A stretch of DNA of 64,000 nucleotides. Origin: Raja brachyura (taxonomy: Eukaryota). The stretch is taken from contig OY740799.1 in assembly GCA_963514005.1 (NCBI GenBank), positions 33,170,001 to 33,234,000 of the forward strand, read 5' to 3'. This document shows, piece after piece, positions 15,001-64,000 of the stretch (its first letter is position 1; each line of letters opens with the position of its first letter). Position numbers: made by a program.

Positions 15001-18000
15001 AAGTAATGTTAATGGATAATCGATGGTCAGCATGGACTCGGTGAGCCGAAATGCCAGTTTCCATGCTGTATCTTTAAACTAAACTACAGTTAAACCTCAG
15101 TGGCTGGGAGAAGTGGAGTAAACACTGAGGGATTACTTTAAGGAGATGGCCAGGGCTCCCCACATTGCACTCACAGGTGAAGTGCGCAGCAACACTGCAC
15201 TCTGAGACATCTGTTTATGTGTTTTTGGTCTGAAGAAGACATGGCTGTCACTGCCAACCCCTTTGACACAGTGACAAAACATAAAATTTGTTGTTTTGTT
15301 TGCATTTCTATATATATATTTATTTGTTTATTTTTCATTTTGGTAAGTGCAAATTTTAATCTGTATCTCAAATGTTTTGGTAGTTGACTACGAAATGGAT
15401 AAGGGCAAATTTCTATTACTTAAATGACAGTAGCATGGTTGTTGCCTTGAGGAAATATCAGAAATAGATAAGGACTGAAGTTTTATTATGTACGTGTTTA
15501 TAACAACAGGAATAAAGACCACAACTGTTCCATCTACAACACTGTTGACCACAACTCCACTTACATCAACTTCAACAATTTCTACACCAATCACTAGCCC
15601 AGGTAAGGTGATACTAGTTACAGGTTATGACATGTAATATTTACAATTTGGTAAGAACAGATTTCAAAAGATCAGAGGTGAAACTGGACATTGGTATGTC
15701 TGTACTTTTGGACATAATAATTATAAATGGGATTCATAAGCAGGTTATCACTTTCCAACACATTTCATGATGTTGGCGATCAGTAACTTTAATCTGCATA
15801 CTCCACCTGGGTATCAAAGAGATGATAAACATTGTGTAAAAAGGGCAAAAGAGAGTCTCTCCTGGCTCCACAAGGCAAATGTATGATTCAGTCAAATAGA
15901 TCTCATCTCAGTTCACTTTCACAGCTCCTGCCTCATAGGAACAAGCCCAAAGCAACTGTAGATGTAAGAGGCATACACCTCTTTGATATCAGCATATCAA
16001 AATGATGAAAGGGATAGACAGAGTTGACGTGGATAAGCTTTTCCCATTGAGGGTAGGAAAGATTCAAACAAGAGGGCATGACATGAGAATTAAGGGACAG
16101 AAGTTTAGGGGTAACATGAGGGGGAACTTCTTTACTCAGAGAGTGGTGGCTGTGTGGAATCACCTTCCTGCAGAAGTGGTGGAGGCAGGATCGATTTTAA
16201 CATTTAAAAGTAAAGTGGGTAGGTATATGGACGGGAAGGGAATGGAGGGGTATGGTCTGAGAGCAGGTAGATGGGACTAGGGGAAAATAAATGGTCGGCA
16301 CGGACTGGAAGGGCCGAGAAGGCCTGTTTCCGTGCTGTAATTGTTATATGGTTATATAGTTATATGGTTAAGAGGCAATTTGTATGGATAAAGTCTGAGC
16401 TTTGGCTTCTGTTTTAAACTCGCTTGTGAAAAGCACATAAGGTCAGGGTTTCATGTTGCCATCTTGCCGAAATGTTGATAAGGATAATGAATGTATATCA
16501 GGAACATCCTCACATAGAACAGTACAGCACAATAACAGGCCTTTTGGATCACACAATGCTCAGTTCAATTAATCTCCTCTGCCTGCAACTAATCTCTGCC
16601 TGCACAATTCTCCATTTTGTGGCTGGGCGACATTTAGAGAGGATGTGTGTATGGTGGGTGTTGAGTGCCCGGCCCACTGCTGAGGGTGGTGATGGAGGCA
16701 GATACAATTGTGGTGTTTAAGAGACTTTTGGATAGACACCTGGATATGCAGGAAATGGAGGGTATGGATTATGTACTGGCAGATAAGGATTGGTTTCGGC
16801 ATCATGTTCGCCACAGACATAGTGGGTTGATGGACCCGTTCCTGTGCTGTATTGTTCTATGTTCTTTTTGAGTAAAATTGACAACTGAATATAATGTCTG
16901 TTTGATTATATTGAGCAATTCTAAAACTGTTTTTTTTTTAAAAGGGGGATAGTAAGATACATTTTTCAGAAAGCTTATTCAGAGAAATGTAAATGTTAGT
17001 TTTAAATATTCATCAGTTTTAACTTCAGTTTTTGTGTTGTTACTATTTTAGTGGGGACCTACATTTCTGAGTGGCAGAAATCAGCCAATGCCCAGCCCCA
17101 TCCACACTAGTCCCACCTCTACATTTGCCAATGTCCTTCTAAACCTATCCAATCTATGTACCTATCCAAATGTTTCTTAATATATTTTTTTAATTTTTAC
17201 TTTAATTTGGGTTTTTTTAAACTGCCAGTAACATCATCTCAGACTAATGCCATGGCATTCTCCTTAATCAATAAACCTACCATTTTGCTATTTTGGGAGA
17301 ACTGCATGATTCTATGACTGAATGTTGGATCTCAATGAAAATATGAACTAAAACAGATGTGATATCAAACTCTGCTAGAGAGTTAACGTGTCATCACAGC
17401 GTCAATAAATATTTAATTCTAACCTCCCTCAATATTGTGATAGACTTATCAAGCTGACGTGAAGGTCAAATCTACAATACCCAATTTCTTGCAGCCAAGG
17501 CCTTGGGTTACATCTGAATATTGATATAATGGAAGGATGATCATAATAACCATTGCCCCTTCACATCTTTTCAATTCTAGTACACCTTTTAATTAAGAAT
17601 CTTGTAGACATCTCTGCTCAACTCTGTTATCCACAGTTATTTCCTGACAGTTTCCCTCTGTTAAATAATGTTGATATTGTTAAATATTGCAGCTCCCTAC
17701 CCTTTTACAAATTCCTCCTAAACTGATAGCAACGCTTCTAAGTACTATTTAATATTGTCCTTGTACAAAGAAATGTACCATAAATGTTGCAGACAGACCT
17801 GTTAGAAATATATGAAAATAAAGCAGCAGACACAGCGTGGACAGTCAGAACCAGGGCGGAAATAGCAGAGCATAGCCTTAACGTGAGAGGGGCATTGAAA
17901 TGAACATGGAGGTGGATTTGAGTAACTATCAAAGAACTGTAAAGGGATAATGCAGTTACCACTCTTGCTCACAAAATAATGTTCTATTGAAAGTATGGTT

Positions 18001-63000: not shown

Positions 63001-64000
63001 ACAAAATAATGTTCTATTGAAAGTATGGTTTCCTTGTGATGCAGATAAATCACCCAGCACATTATATTGCTGAATGGAGTATGGTTATCATTTTGAAGCC
63101 ATTTGCTGAAATTATGTTACACAATCATTTATCCGGCTAATTTTCTACTTCCTCAGTTGTGCCATTCATCGTTGAATGGTCATGAATGCTTTTACTTTCT
63201 TAAGAAACAATAACAGTATCAACCATAACTGAGTTTACCACCAGTCAGATAACTGGTGGGTGATGCCTTCATTCAATATTAATTCATGGATATTTTAAAG
63301 CAACTATCCTTTTAAGCACTGCAAGCTTGAACTTTATTGGCTTGCCACAATCGTTTTAATTTCAGCGCAGTAGAGTTCTATCCTTCTCCAGAATCTTAAG
63401 GGTTCACTCGAGGTTGGTGATATGGCACAGAACAGATCAAATATATCTCCTTCATCAACATTCGGAATTATTTCTGTATCAAGCACTGGAAATTTGGGTT
63501 GCCATACAGCCATACGAATAAAAAAGGAACACAACACACGATAGAATTTAACATAGACATCCCCACACAGCAGAATCAACGTTTCCCACTGTGAGGGAAG
63601 GCAATAAAGTTCAGCCATCTTCCTCTTTGTTTACCCGTGGTCGGGGGCCCCAATGTTCAGGCCCTCGCCGGGATGATCGGAACTCCGACGTCGGAATGGA
63701 GAACTCTCTCAGCGACTTGGAGTTCCGAACCGGCCACCTACTGGAGACCAGGGCTCCCGATGTCCACAGGCCGTGCTTGGCGGAGATTCACACTGGCGTC
63801 CTCGCCAAAGGGACCACCAGGACTCCGCGATGTTGTTCAGCATTGCCTGCGGCTAGAAGCTCCGCAACCATAGTTCTACGATGTTAAAACAGTAGGCCCA
63901 ATGCTCCGGAGCTTCATCAAACGATCCCCAGTAAGGAACAGACAGCTCCACTCAGAGGTGTTAATTCAGTGCTGCGTCGCTGTTGAAGCTCTGGTCGGTC

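What the first reader, a model, noticed from the sequence alone, without database searches (positions are those of the whole stretch)
17951..64000. Mucin repeat domain encoded by a 6.48-kb, 8-exon genomic macrosatellite: (CysD-PTS)n with introns included
Seen: at least 7 near-identical head-to-tail copies, each with 8 exons (51, 45, 348, 60, 51, 51, 63, 57 nt; sum 726 nt = 242 aa), and the array runs past the window end. Established: in mammalian MUC2/MUC5AC/MUC5B the PTS and CysD repeats lie mostly in one very large central exon. Here about 89% of each repeat is intron, and the unit of amplification is a whole multi-exon cassette. Inference: unequal crossover adds or removes one CysD cross-linking module plus ~145 aa of O-glycan brush per step, giving evenly spaced CysD stickers and likely allelic copy-number variation that tunes gel mesh.
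Basis: partly seen in the sequence, partly recalled or inferred. Interest (0 to 1): 0.9.

Follow-up and report, generated by a model that had tools for sequence, protein, structure and literature searches.

The report
Skate mucin gene's multi-exon repeat array
A cartilaginous-fish mucus-protein gene builds its long sugar-coated middle part from at least seven nearly identical 6.5-kb blocks of eight small exons each, a layout that is unusual compared with mammals but has precedents in frog and chicken mucins.

Summary
From 17951 to the window end there are 7 full units plus a 1020-bp partial one. The period is 6477-6487 bp (first unit 6154 bp). Units are 99.6-99.97% identical apart from a more diverged leading edge.

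All 57 of 57 instances are intact.

The 348-nt exon is a true CysD domain (Pfam PF13330 E=1.2e-14; human MUC5B/5AC/MUC2 CysD by sequence, and by fold). Upstream on the same strand lie TIL, VWD and C8 exons of a gel-forming mucin.

The closest named relatives are chondrichthyan. The best is an NCBI model from the skate Rhinoraja longicauda, which shows the same mini-exon peptides and the same junction into CysD. It has no equivalent of exon 1.

There is no transcript evidence. Copy-number variation and gel tuning are untested. Multi-exonic mucin domains are already known (Xenopus Otogl, chicken Muc13). This is a well-supported new variant of a known kind, of moderate interest.

The parts
17951..24104 (+). 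Cassette unit 1 (6154 bp, edge copy). Exons: E1 18164-18214, E2 19594-19638, E3 (CysD) 21107-21454, E4 21716-21775, E5 22363-22413, E6 22752-22802, E7 22924-22986, E8 23385-23441
   Evidence: Its first 834 bp are 95.5% identical to later units and the rest is about 99.7%. It lacks the 314-bp stretch present in units 2-8. E1 differs at 3 residues and E8 at 1 residue from later units.
24105..30581 (+). Cassette unit 2 (6477 bp, reference unit). Exons: E1 24329-24379 (51), E2 26070-26114 (45), E3 27583-27930 (348, CysD plus 20-aa PTS tail), E4 28192-28251 (60), E5 28840-28890 (51), E6 29229-29279 (51), E7 29401-29463 (63), E8 29862-29918 (57)
   Evidence: All exons have AG/GT and are phase 1-1. 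Donors read G|gt(a/g)(a/g)gt and acceptors are pyrimidine-rich and end cag or aag. E3 matches Pfam PF13330 with E=1.2e-14.
30582..37068 (+). Cassette unit 3 (6487 bp). Exons: 30806-30856, 32547-32591, 34068-34415, 34677-34739 (63 nt, in-frame +3), 35327-35377, 35716-35766, 35888-35950, 36349-36405
37069..43546 (+). Cassette unit 4 (6478 bp). Exons: 37293-37343, 39035-39079, 40548-40895, 41157-41216, 41805-41855, 42194-42244, 42366-42428, 42827-42883
   Evidence: Units 4-7 differ from each other by 2-6 substitutions in 6478.
43547..50024 (+). Cassette unit 5 (6478 bp). Exons: 43771-43821, 45513-45557, 47026-47373, 47635-47694, 48283-48333, 48672-48722, 48844-48906, 49305-49361
50025..56502 (+). 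Cassette unit 6 (6478 bp). Exons: 50249-50299, 51991-52035, 53504-53851, 54113-54172, 54761-54811, 55150-55200, 55322-55384, 55783-55839
56503..62980 (+). Cassette unit 7 (6478 bp). Exons: 56727-56777, 58469-58513, 59982-60329, 60591-60650, 61239-61289, 61628-61678, 61800-61862, 62261-62317
62981..64000 (+). Cassette unit 8, partial (1020 bp, cut by the window end). Exon E1 63205-63255
   Evidence: 0 differences from units 4-7 over 1020 bp. The array continues beyond the window.
15510..15602 (+). Unique PTS exon (93 nt, phase 1-1) between D3 and the array
   Evidence: AG/GT, 73% Pro/Thr/Ser; 76% identical to residues 1188-1224 of the Rhinoraja longicauda model.
12201..13565 (+). TIL-3/E-3 exons of the D3 assembly: 12201-12314, 12631-12771 and a short exon near 13530-13565 (boundaries from protein matches, not refined)
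6201..10967 (+). VWD3 and C8-3 exons: 6201-6344, 7174-7608 (one match spanning two exons), 10490-10735, 10809-10967
   Evidence: VWD E=1.2e-6, C8 E=6.4e-14.. (aligns to MUC2 965-1044, MUC5B 994-1073, MUC5AC 1002-1081).
3..6111 (+). Upstream exons of D2 end and D': 3-65, 2465-2707 (TIL), 2793-2876, 2945-3043, 5965-6111 (TIL')
   Evidence: TIL E=3.1e-6. (aligns to MUC5B 669-741, VWF 650-718, MUC2 640-711)..

Best explanation
The window holds the middle of a gel-forming (MUC5/MUC2-type) mucin gene of a skate-like cartilaginous fish, read on the + strand. Exons for the end of D2, for D' and for D3 lie at 0-13.6 kb, and one unique PTS exon lies at 15.5 kb. Then comes a tandem array of at least 7 copies of a 6.48-kb cassette.

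Each cassette has eight small exons. Together they encode one 95-residue CysD domain (8 Cys, WSPW motif) and about 147 residues of Thr/Ser/Pro-rich O-glycosylation brush. That brush is 139 whole codons, 81% Pro/Thr/Ser, plus 8 junction codons. Every exon starts with two bases and ends with one base of a split codon (phase 1-1; the junction codon is GAA for Glu, and GTG for Val into CysD). Any whole number of cassettes, or of exons, therefore keeps the reading frame.

Shown: the array, the exon signals, the domain identities, and the homogeneity of introns and exons alike.

Inferred:
- The array grew and is kept uniform by unequal crossing-over or gene conversion between units. This is the reading suggested by near-identity that includes introns, a more diverged edge copy, and nested shared variants.
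- The 6.48-kb unit is itself a higher-order repeat, built earlier from duplicated mini-exon-plus-intron modules.
- The spliced product is a regular CysD-brush-CysD-brush polymer segment.

Copy number would then set the length of the mucin domain and the number of evenly spaced CysD modules.
For: Array and identity.

Exon model:
- 57 of 57 exon instances are open with AG/GT.
- Splice contexts are consensus-like.
- PTS mini-exon candidates are found only on the + strand of the array and in 0 of 200 shuffles.

CysD:
- Pfam PF13330 matches with E=1.2e-14 over profile positions 1-88 of 88.
- PDB sequence hits are only human MUC5B, MUC5AC and MUC2 CysD, 5 of 5. All 7 Cys in the aligned core are matched.
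- In the Foldseek search of the AlphaFold model, ranks 1-8 are all CysD structures with probability 1.00. The next hit has E=0.16.

Mucin context:
- TIL, VWD and C8 exons lie upstream on the same strand.
- They are collinear with residues 609-1224 of 'mucin-6-like [Rhinoraja longicauda]' at 63-95% identity per exon.

Independent spliced models:
- That NCBI protein reads PTS exon, then Glu, then ETSTVTSTSISSTT (13 of 14 identical to E2), then a junction residue, then CysD, then mini-units that match E4/E8 (94%) and E6 (81%).
- It repeats this cassette 3 times, with CysD 213 and 230 residues apart.
- A Pristis pectinata protein holds an exact E5 peptide, 16 of 16.

Concerted evolution in relatives: the median CysD-CysD identity within a protein is 1.00 in P0001 (11 copies) and 0.92 in P0003 (7 copies). 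Between the proteins compared it is at most 0.77.

Hierarchy: intron 3 plus E4 is 78% identical over 356 nt to intron 7 plus E8, and the other mini-exon modules are 67-85% identical to one another.

CysD function by analogy: the abstract of PMC3195396 reports non-covalent CysD dimers, proposed as cross-links that set pore size.
Against: - No transcript or peptide evidence was available. Splicing is inferred from sequence signals and from automatic gene models in other species.
- E1 has no convincing counterpart in any of the 32 relatives compared and is absent from the closest model.
- There is no measurable coding constraint. 7 of 68 variable columns among units 1-7 fall in exons, against about 7.6 expected from the 11.2% exon share. 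The old paralog pair E4/E8 is 86% identical in the exon and 84% in the flanking intron (Fisher p=0.84).
- The CysD has 8 Cys in the exon, whereas human MUC2 CysD has five disulfides (abstract of PMC3195396).
- The AlphaFold model is only moderately confident (pLDDT 71.6) and TM-scores are 0.40-0.56.
- Units 4-7 are so alike (2-6 differences) that their exact number rests on the assembly.
- The C-terminal part of the gene lies outside the window.
Confidence: 0.8

Rival explanations
1. The cassette is real and spliced, but not all eight exons are constitutive. E1 in particular may be a decaying pseudo-exon or an alternatively used exon. The unit would then contribute 225 residues or a variable number, and the symmetric exons would be used for alternative splicing.
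For: - E1 has only 56% Pro/Thr/Ser and fails the filter.
- It has no counterpart in the R. longicauda model, where the E8-like unit joins the E2-like unit directly.
- Its best matches in 32 relatives are weak, with E of 0.064 or worse.
- All 3 substitutions between unit 1 and later units in E1 change the residue.
- Relatives show variable CysD spacing: 162, 204 and 417 residues in P0003, and 190-358 in P0001.
Against: - E1 keeps AG/GT, phase and an open frame in 8 of 8 copies, including the diverged edge copy.
- Its splice sites resemble those of E5.
- The relative's model is automatic and truncated, so absence of E1 there is weak evidence.
Confidence: 0.35
2. The copy number, or part of the near-identity, is an assembly artefact: an over-expanded or collapsed tandem repeat. 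The true array is much shorter or longer than seen.
For: - Units 4-7 and the partial unit 8 differ by only 0-6 substitutions.
- The array runs off the window end.
- Tandem repeats of this size are hard to assemble (general knowledge).
Against: - Units carry their own variants in a nested pattern. Among units 2-7 there are 33 substitution columns, several shared by units 2+3 against 4-7 and many private to unit 2 or unit 3.
- Unit 3 has private indels, including an in-frame codon.
- Unit 1 has a distinct edge structure. That fits distinct genomic copies better than duplicated reads.
- Relatives from other assemblies also show many identical CysD copies.
Confidence: 0.1
3. The array is a non-functional recent segmental amplification inside an intron or a dying gene. 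The exons look intact only because the copies are too young to have decayed.
For: There is no excess conservation of exons over introns, either among units or between old paralog modules. Intactness of 57 of 57 young copies is weak evidence on its own.
Against: - The eight exons within one unit are old paralogs (67-85% identity). All still keep AG/GT, phase 1-1, a length divisible by three and Thr-rich coding.
- The CysD keeps all core Cys and the WxxW motif at about 31-36% identity to human CysD structures in the fold alignments (sequence alignments).
- The same mini-exon peptides occur in annotated proteins of other chondrichthyans.
- The upstream D-domain exons are intact and 63-95% identical to the skate model.
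Confidence: 0.05

Closest known systems
Xenopus tropicalis skin mucin Otogl / MucXS (PMC5789918, passages read)
   Same: It is a gel-forming mucin whose central domain is multi-exonic and made of many alternating Cys-rich and PTS repeats (39 and 34 in that paper). The authors contrast it explicitly with the single long exon of mammalian mucins.
   Different: That paper states that Otogl lacks typical CysD domains, whereas here the Cys-rich module is a true CysD (PF13330). The passages I read say nothing about a multi-exon higher-order cassette or about near-identity of introns. Here the unit is 6.48 kb with 8 exons at 99.6-99.97% identity.
Human MUC5AC / MUC5B / MUC2 central mucin domain (PMC9712336, passages read; PDB 8ov0, 8oer, 6tm6)
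   Same: It has VWD-C8-TIL assemblies at the N-terminus, followed by PTS brush interrupted by CysD domains. The repeats are organised in tandem and vary in length. By sequence and by fold, the CysD here is closest to the MUC5B and MUC5AC CysD.
   Different: In human the whole mucin domain is one exon of about 6-13 kb. Here about 89% of each repeat is intron and the repeat unit is a set of eight exons. In the fold alignments the CysD is only 36% and 31% identical to MUC5B and MUC5AC.
Chicken (and zebrafish) Muc13 (PMC1552070, passages read)
   Same: The PTS domain is split over multiple exons, and each exon encodes one repeat unit. The authors raised the idea that length could be set by alternative splicing.
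   Different: Muc13 is a transmembrane SEA-domain mucin without VWD or CysD domains. Its repeat is a single exon, not an eight-exon cassette.
NCBI model 'mucin-6-like [Rhinoraja longicauda]' (P0151)
   Same: - It is collinear with the window's upstream exons: the TIL exon 2465-2704 is 87.5% identical and the D' and D3 exons are 90-94%.
- It has the same first PTS exon and the same E2-to-CysD junction.
- It has three identical CysD cassettes, 213 and 230 residues apart, built of the same kind of 12-20-residue mini-units.
   Different: - Its CysD is only about 57% identical to the one here.
- It has no equivalent of E1.
- The order and number of mini-units differ.
- The model ends inside the array.
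- The automatic name (mucin-6) does not fit a CysD-bearing mucin.
LPA kringle IV-2 coding VNTR (PMC11462820, start of abstract seen in a search listing)
   Same: It is a protein-coding tandem repeat whose unit is several kb (5.6 kb, 1-40 units per allele) and includes introns, so each unit adds one folded domain in frame.
   Different: The domain is a kringle in a plasma protein. The two-exon unit is recalled, not seen in any call. There is no low-complexity brush. Copy-number polymorphism is documented there and untested here.

Membership tests
Gel-forming mucin of the MUC2/MUC5 type | N-terminal VWD-C8-TIL assemblies (D1-D2-D'-D3) ahead of the mucin domain | tested here: met
   TIL, VWD and C8 exons lie on the + strand at 2.4-13.6 kb. 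They align to MUC5B 669-741 and to MUC2 965-1044 / MUC5B 994-1073. They are collinear with residues 609-1224 of a skate mucin model. D1 and most of D2 lie outside the window.
Gel-forming mucin of the MUC2/MUC5 type | Central Pro/Thr/Ser-rich domain | tested here: met
   Each cassette has 139 non-CysD whole codons, of which 99 are Ser/Thr and 13 are Pro, counted exon by exon.
Gel-forming mucin of the MUC2/MUC5 type | CysD domains interspersed in the PTS region (this distinguishes MUC2/MUC5 from MUC6 and MUC19, per passages in PMC4948705 and PMC4200417) | tested here: met
   There are 7 CysD exons, one per unit, identical over 114 residues in 7 of 7 copies. Support comes from Pfam PF13330, PDB sequence hits and fold.
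Gel-forming mucin of the MUC2/MUC5 type | C-terminal D4, VWC and cystine-knot part | not testable with these tools
   The array runs off the window end. A relative (P0026) has VWD-like sequence after its CysD.
Gel-forming mucin of the MUC2/MUC5 type | Dense O-glycosylation and secretion as a polymer | not testable with these tools
   This needs biochemistry. Gel-forming mucins have been found by mass spectrometry in shark skin mucus (PMC10707392, passages), but not this gene.
CysD domain (Pfam PF13330, Mucin2_WxxW) | Profile match above the curated cut-off over the whole domain | tested here: met
   55.2 bits against a cut-off of 22.4, covering profile positions 1-88 of 88.
CysD domain (Pfam PF13330, Mucin2_WxxW) | WxxW motif | tested here: met
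   W-S-P-W at residues 7-10 of the exon translation, aligned to WSSW of MUC5B and WTKW of MUC5AC.
CysD domain (Pfam PF13330, Mucin2_WxxW) | Conserved cysteines (five intramolecular disulfides in human MUC2 CysD, abstract of PMC3195396) | tested here: inconclusive
   The exon has 8 Cys. All 7 in the aligned core coincide with Cys of the human CysD domains. Whether a fifth pair is truly missing was not resolved.
CysD domain (Pfam PF13330, Mucin2_WxxW) | CysD fold | tested here: met
   The AlphaFold2 model has pLDDT 71.6. Foldseek ranks 1-8 are all CysD structures with probability 1.00 and TM 0.40-0.56. The next hit has E=0.16. Model confidence is moderate.
CysD domain (Pfam PF13330, Mucin2_WxxW) | Non-covalent self-association | not testable with these tools
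   Known for human MUC2 CysD (abstract of PMC3195396). This domain needs a binding assay.
MUC6 (the automatic name of the closest model) | No CysD domains (passage in PMC4200417) | tested here: not met
   CysD is present in every unit, so this gene is not filed as MUC6. The automatic names of relatives vary between mucin-19-like, mucin-2-like and mucin-6-like.
Multi-exonic mucin domain (Xenopus Otogl/MucXS, chicken Muc13) | PTS repeats each carried by their own exon, with introns between them | tested here: met
   Seven PTS mini-exons of 45-63 nt per unit, with AG/GT and a common phase. The same peptides occur in annotated relatives. Transcript proof is lacking.
Coding multi-exon macrosatellite (LPA KIV-2 type) | Head-to-tail units of several kb that contain whole exons and keep the frame whatever the copy number | tested here: met
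   The period is 6477-6487 bp. The exon sum is 726 nt, or 729 in unit 3. All exons are phase 1-1.
Coding multi-exon macrosatellite (LPA KIV-2 type) | Copy number varies between alleles or individuals | not testable with these tools
   Only one assembled haplotype is available, and no reads.

The most novel reading that the evidence does not exclude
In cartilaginous fishes the mucin domain is a fast-turnover, doubly tunable module.

First, arrays appear to be rebuilt lineage by lineage from different founder cassettes and then homogenised. Against the closest skate model, the D3 exons are 93-94% identical but the CysD is only about 57% identical, while CysD copies within each protein are identical.

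Second, every exon is phase 1-1. The spacing and number of CysD cross-links could therefore be set both in the germ line, by unequal crossover, and per tissue, by exon or cassette skipping. That would make this a natural experiment on how CysD spacing sets mucus mesh.
Probability: 0.2. Interest if true: 0.65.

Novelty: new variant of a known kind. Interest (0 to 1): 0.42.

Why it matters
It shows a second genomic way to build a MUC5/MUC2-type mucin domain. Instead of one giant repetitive exon, the gene uses a macrosatellite of intron-rich eight-exon cassettes, each adding exactly one CysD module and one brush segment.

- Such loci are likely to be truncated or misnamed in automatic annotation. 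The closest model ends inside the array and is called mucin-6-like.
- The perfectly regular cassette gives a tractable system for testing how CysD number and spacing affect gel properties.
- It also lets one ask whether copy number or exon skipping varies between individuals and tissues.

It does not overturn current understanding, because multi-exonic mucin domains and coding macrosatellites are both known.

Tried and rejected
- Tandem Repeats Finder found nothing. Its longest period is 500 bp, so self-BLAST was used instead.
- The search for homologous proteins with the CysD exon and 'longer' gave 396 candidates and none significant. This was a limit of the word prefilter, since the exhaustive search found 246 hits.
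- The listing of cluster members for names of the unnamed best hits did not complete because the database is switched off.
- Rfam at gathering threshold and ARAGORN on 1-30600 gave 0 and 0. No SINE-like tRNA part or known RNA was seen in the introns.
- Exon versus intron conservation tests gave no signal.
- The 314-bp stretch missing from unit 1 has no other copy in the window, and I saw no target-site duplication. Whether it is an insertion or a deletion is undecided.
- A prediction of two copies of the CysD core (collected) returned 'no answer'. It is not used for or against binding.
- Reading the array as several genes was rejected, because no unit contains a VWD, C8 or TIL exon.
- A minus-strand gene was rejected: there were no PTS or Cys-rich candidates on that strand.
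- A human origin was rejected. In the fold alignments the CysD is 28-36% identical to the human CysD structures, and 27 of the 28 significant named relatives are chondrichthyan.
- Literature searches found no description of a multi-exon CysD-PTS cassette array. The library lacks most subscription journals, and supplements were closed.

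
Full report
**1. The observation**

Self-comparison of the window shows one long direct repeat. The stretch 18785-57522 matches 25262-64000 at 99.74%, and offsets of 2-6 periods match at 99.6-99.7%. There, 17951-18784 matches 24105-24950 and its equivalents at 95.5%.

In that register the units start at 17951, 24105, 30582, 37069, 43547, 50025, 56503 and 62981. That makes seven full units of 6154, 6477, 6487, 6478, 6478, 6478 and 6478 bp, plus 1020 bp of an eighth that is cut by the window end. 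The window has no N. Tandem Repeats Finder reported nothing only because its longest period is 500 bp.

In a multiple alignment of the units:
- units 4-7 differ from each other by 2-6 substitutions in 6478;
- units 2 and 3 differ by 16-23 from each other and from units 4-7;
- unit 1 differs by 47-50 from the others, 27 of them in the 837 columns it shares with the partial eighth unit, that is, its leading ~0.8 kb.

Unit 1 also lacks a 314-bp stretch that all later units have (24951-25264 in unit 2).

**2. The exon model**

I scanned unit 2 for open stretches bounded by AG and GT.

| Exon | Coordinates in unit 2 | Length (nt) |
|---|---|---|
| E1 | 24329-24379 | 51 |
| E2 | 26070-26114 | 45 |
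| E3 | 27583-27930 | 348 |
| E4 | 28192-28251 | 60 |
| E5 | 28840-28890 | 51 |
| E6 | 29229-29279 | 51 |
| E7 | 29401-29463 | 63 |
| E8 | 29862-29918 | 57 |

The sum is 726 nt, or 11.2% of the unit.

All eight are phase 1-1. Each begins with two bases and ends with one base (G) of a split codon. Junctions therefore read GAA (Glu), or GTG (Val) going into E3.

Donors are G|gt(a/g)(a/g)gt. Acceptors are pyrimidine-rich and end in cag or aag. Projected through the alignment, 57 of 57 exon instances keep AG, GT, length class and an open frame (7 units x 8 exons, plus E1 of the partial unit). The only length change is an in-frame extra codon in E4 of unit 3.

As a chance control I counted AG..GT, phase 1-1, open stretches of 42-69 nt with at least 75% Pro/Thr/Ser.
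- Plus strand of unit 2: 12 nested hits at six loci (E2, E4-E8).
- Minus strand of unit 2: none.
- Either strand of 1-17950: none.
- 200 shuffles: none.

E1 has 56% Pro/Thr/Ser and does not pass that filter.

Counted exon by exon, a cassette gives a 95-residue CysD core with 8 Cys, then 139 further whole codons (99 Ser/Thr, 13 Pro), plus 8 junction codons. The total is 242.

By instruction I did not build or search a joined (spliced) sequence. Every search below used single exons.

**3. What the exons are, and the gene around them**

The 348-nt exon is a CysD domain.
- Pfam PF13330 (Mucin2_WxxW) matches with E=1.2e-14 over the whole profile.
- The only solved structures matched by sequence are human MUC5B, MUC5AC and MUC2 CysD domains, 5 of 5 hits. 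E is 2.4e-10, 3e-10 and about 2e-5 respectively. The WxxW motif and all seven Cys of the aligned core coincide.
- An AlphaFold2 model from a 17-row alignment has pLDDT 71.6. It finds CysD structures at Foldseek ranks 1-8, with probability 1.00 and TM 0.40-0.56. The next hit has E=0.16.

The seven copies of the domain are identical over 114 residues.

Upstream on the same strand lie exons with TIL, VWD and C8 matches.
- The exon 2465-2707 aligns to MUC5B 669-741.
- The exon 10490-10735 aligns to the D3 part of MUC2, MUC5B and MUC5AC.
- Other Cys-rich open stretches complete a D'-D3 series.
- A unique 93-nt PTS exon sits at 15510-15602.

By bit score the exons are somewhat nearer to MUC5B/5AC than to MUC2: CysD 43.6 and 43.3 against 27.8; the TIL exon 80 against 61. 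I did not build a tree, so 'MUC5-like' is a lean, not a classification.

**4. Source and relatives**

A search with the D3 exon found 28 significant proteins among 30 candidates. 27 are from sharks, rays, skates or a chimaera, and one is from Polypterus. The best is 'mucin-6-like [Rhinoraja longicauda]' (P0151, 1852 aa, 93% identical in this exon).

The window is therefore from a skate-like chondrichthyan and I do not take it for human. In the fold alignments its CysD is 28-36% identical to the human CysD structures.

P0151 is collinear with the window from 3-65 to 15512-15622. The TIL exon 2465-2704 is 87.5% identical and the D' and D3 exons are 90-94%.

After D3 the protein reads as follows:
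1. the unique PTS exon;
2. Glu;
3. ETSTVTSTSISSTT (13 of 14 identical to E2);
4. one junction residue;
5. CysD;
6. five mini-units of 12-20 residues that end in TT and are joined by Glu;
7. the E2-like unit again.

It has three identical CysD copies, 213 and 230 residues apart, and the model ends inside the array.

Peptide comparisons against 32 relatives (27 named, 5 unnamed) gave these matches:
- 93-95% for E2, E4 and E8 in P0151;
- 81% for E6;
- 16 of 16 for E5 in a Pristis pectinata protein;
- 75% for E7.

An independent annotation pipeline in other species thus splices the same kind of mini-exons in the same way. This is the best support available here short of cDNA.

The exception is E1. 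No relative has a convincing match (best E 0.064), and P0151 joins its E8-like unit directly to its E2-like unit. E1 is the least certain exon.

**5. How the array evolved**

The identity covers introns as much as exons.
- Among units 1-7, 68 alignment columns vary by substitution and 7 of them are exonic. About 7.6 are expected from the exon share.
- Among units 2-7 it is 2 of 33.

The copies are therefore too young, or too homogenised, for selection to show.

Variants are nested. Several are shared by units 2+3 against 4-7, and many are private to unit 2 or unit 3. The edge unit is the most diverged. This is the pattern expected of a tandem array evolving by unequal exchange and conversion, with the interior turned over most recently. 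It argues against a pure assembly duplication.

Inside a unit the mini-exons with their flanking intron are old paralogs of one another. Intron 3 plus E4 matches intron 7 plus E8 at 78% over 356 nt, and other pairs match at 67-85%. The 6.48-kb unit is therefore a higher-order repeat built from an older mini-exon module. In the best pair the exon (86%) is no better kept than the intron (84%, p=0.84).

An exhaustive profile-free search with the CysD exon found 246 proteins at E<=1e-3, 96 at E<=1e-10 and 32 at E<=1e-30. In two long unnamed relatives the CysD copies within one protein are nearly identical. The median is 1.00 for 11 copies in P0001 and 0.92 for 7 copies in P0003. Between the proteins compared identity is at most 0.77. 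Homogenised arrays are thus a general trait of this group.

One thing remains unexplained. Against P0151 the D3 exons are 93-94% identical and the PTS mini-exons 81-95%, but the CysD is only about 57%. P0026 has a closer CysD (62-66%) yet a more distant D3 (76-79%). Different founder cassettes, exchange between paralogous mucin genes, or fast CysD evolution could each explain this.

**6. Likely mechanism**

Shown:
- a + strand mucin gene whose central domain is encoded by at least 7 intron-rich cassettes;
- each cassette adds one CysD and one brush segment;
- all exons are symmetric in phase.

Inferred:
- Misaligned recombination between units adds or removes whole cassettes without breaking the frame, and keeps the copies alike.
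- The protein is a regular alternation of a folded CysD with roughly 147 residues of densely O-glycosylated, Glu-punctuated Thr-rich linker. If E1 is skipped the linker is about 130 residues.
- CysD domains give non-covalent cross-links, as proposed for human MUC2 (abstract of PMC3195396). Copy number would then set how many evenly spaced cross-link sites a monomer carries.
- The phase symmetry would also allow exon or cassette skipping. The variable CysD spacing in relatives' models fits this but does not prove it.

**7. Comparison with what is known**

- Human MUC2, MUC5AC, MUC5B and MUC6 carry the mucin domain in one exon (PMC9712336, passages).
- Multi-exon PTS domains were first reported for chicken Muc13, one repeat per exon, with a zebrafish counterpart (PMC1552070, passages).
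- The Xenopus tadpole skin mucin Otogl/MucXS has a multi-exonic central domain with 39 Cys-rich and 34 PTS repeats, but no typical CysD (PMC5789918, passages).
- Lang et al. [quoted passage not shown] In the passages I read they say nothing on exon structure of the PTS region (PMC4948705).
- A CysD-only 'Mucin-5AC' family with 19 CysD in a catshark (Scyliorhinus canicula) and 27 in a skate (Amblyraja radiata, called little skate in the paper) is a different protein without VWD domains (PMC11765562, passages).
- Gel-forming mucins have been detected in shark skin mucus (PMC10707392, passages).
- Coding macrosatellites with intron-containing units are well known from LPA KIV-2: 5.6 kb per unit and 1-40 units (PMC11462820, search listing only).
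- DMBT1, nebulin and FCGBP are further examples that I recall but did not check.

Seven searches found no description of an eight-exon CysD-PTS cassette array in a MUC5/MUC2-type mucin. The supplements of PMC4948705 and PMC5789918 may bear on this.

**8. What stayed unchecked**

- No transcript data, no reads and no second haplotype were available.
- No eukaryotic genome collection was on hand. The collection genome contigs holds only bacteria and archaea and was not used. The orthologous DNA of other chondrichthyans could therefore not be compared.
- Names for the unnamed relatives could not be looked up.

**9. Verdict**

The structural reading is well supported: a mucin (CysD-PTS)n domain encoded by a multi-exon macrosatellite in a chondrichthyan. 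Seven of the eight exons are backed by relatives' gene models, and E1 is doubtful. Unequal crossover, copy-number polymorphism and gel tuning are reasonable but untested.

It is a new variant of known kinds (multi-exonic mucin domains and coding macrosatellites) rather than a new principle. Interest is moderate.

Noticed in passing
24951-25264 and the equivalent places in units 3-8 (31428, 37915, 44393, 50871, 57349, 63827); absent between 18784 and 18785 of unit 1: A 314-bp, 54% G+C stretch in intron 1 of every cassette except the first. It has no other copy in the window, and I saw no obvious target-site duplication. Units 2-8 therefore share a founder that differs from the edge unit.
   Followed up: partly
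CysD exons (e.g. 27583-27930) versus D3 exons (10490-10967): Divergence is discordant. Against the Rhinoraja longicauda model the D3 exons are 93-94% identical and the PTS mini-exons 81-95%, but the CysD is only about 57%. The unnamed relative P0026 has a closer CysD (62-66%) but a more distant D3 (76-79%).
   Followed up: partly
34677-34739 (E4 of unit 3): An in-frame insertion of one ACN codon makes this exon 63 instead of 60 nt. It is the only exon length variant among 57 instances. The other seven extra bases of unit 3 (runs of 2, 6 and 3 extra bases against a 1-base gap) lie in introns.
   Followed up: yes
7909-8268 / 17368-17777 and 8548-8744 / 17122-17309 (inverted); 11321-11437 versus 18458-18568 and the equivalent in every unit (inverted): Interspersed repeats at 75-81% identity lie in the introns of the D3 region, just upstream of the array and inside intron 1 of each cassette. 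They are probably transposon fragments. They have no Rfam or tRNA match.
   Followed up: partly
1681-2019 (+), 4074-4486 (+), 15987-16280 (+), 13866-14093 (-): Open frames of 70-112 residues in introns. Three of them (1681-2019, 4241-4486 and 15987-16280) share motifs such as RGDLIE.YKI or KG.D. From memory they resemble the 3' end of retrotransposon ORFs common in shark genomes. The four frames I submitted (1681-2019, 4241-4486, 15987-16280 and 13866-14093) had no Pfam match.
   Followed up: partly
Proteins (not in the window): Several chondrichthyan species have two or three hits whose longest contig has the same length, and so are probably on one contig. Examples are three in Chiloscyllium plagiosum, three in Rhincodon typus, and two each in Narcine, Heterodontus, Mobula hypostoma and Leucoraja. 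This suggests clusters of paralogous gel-forming mucin genes. Their automatic names are inconsistent (mucin-19-like, mucin-2-like, mucin-6-like).
   Followed up: no
Whole window, 2-kb windows: G-C skew is positive or near zero in 8 of the 9 windows of 1-18000 (one is -0.046). It turns negative (-0.04 to -0.17) throughout the array, in introns as well as exons.
   Followed up: no
Unnamed relatives P0001 and P0003: CysD copies in these proteins are spaced irregularly: 190, 192, 253, 272, 351 and 358 residues in P0001, and 162, 204 and 417 in P0003. Yet their CysD sequences are near-identical. The steps of about 40-80 residues look like whole numbers of mini-units. This fits either variable cassettes or exon skipping in the models.
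   Followed up: partly
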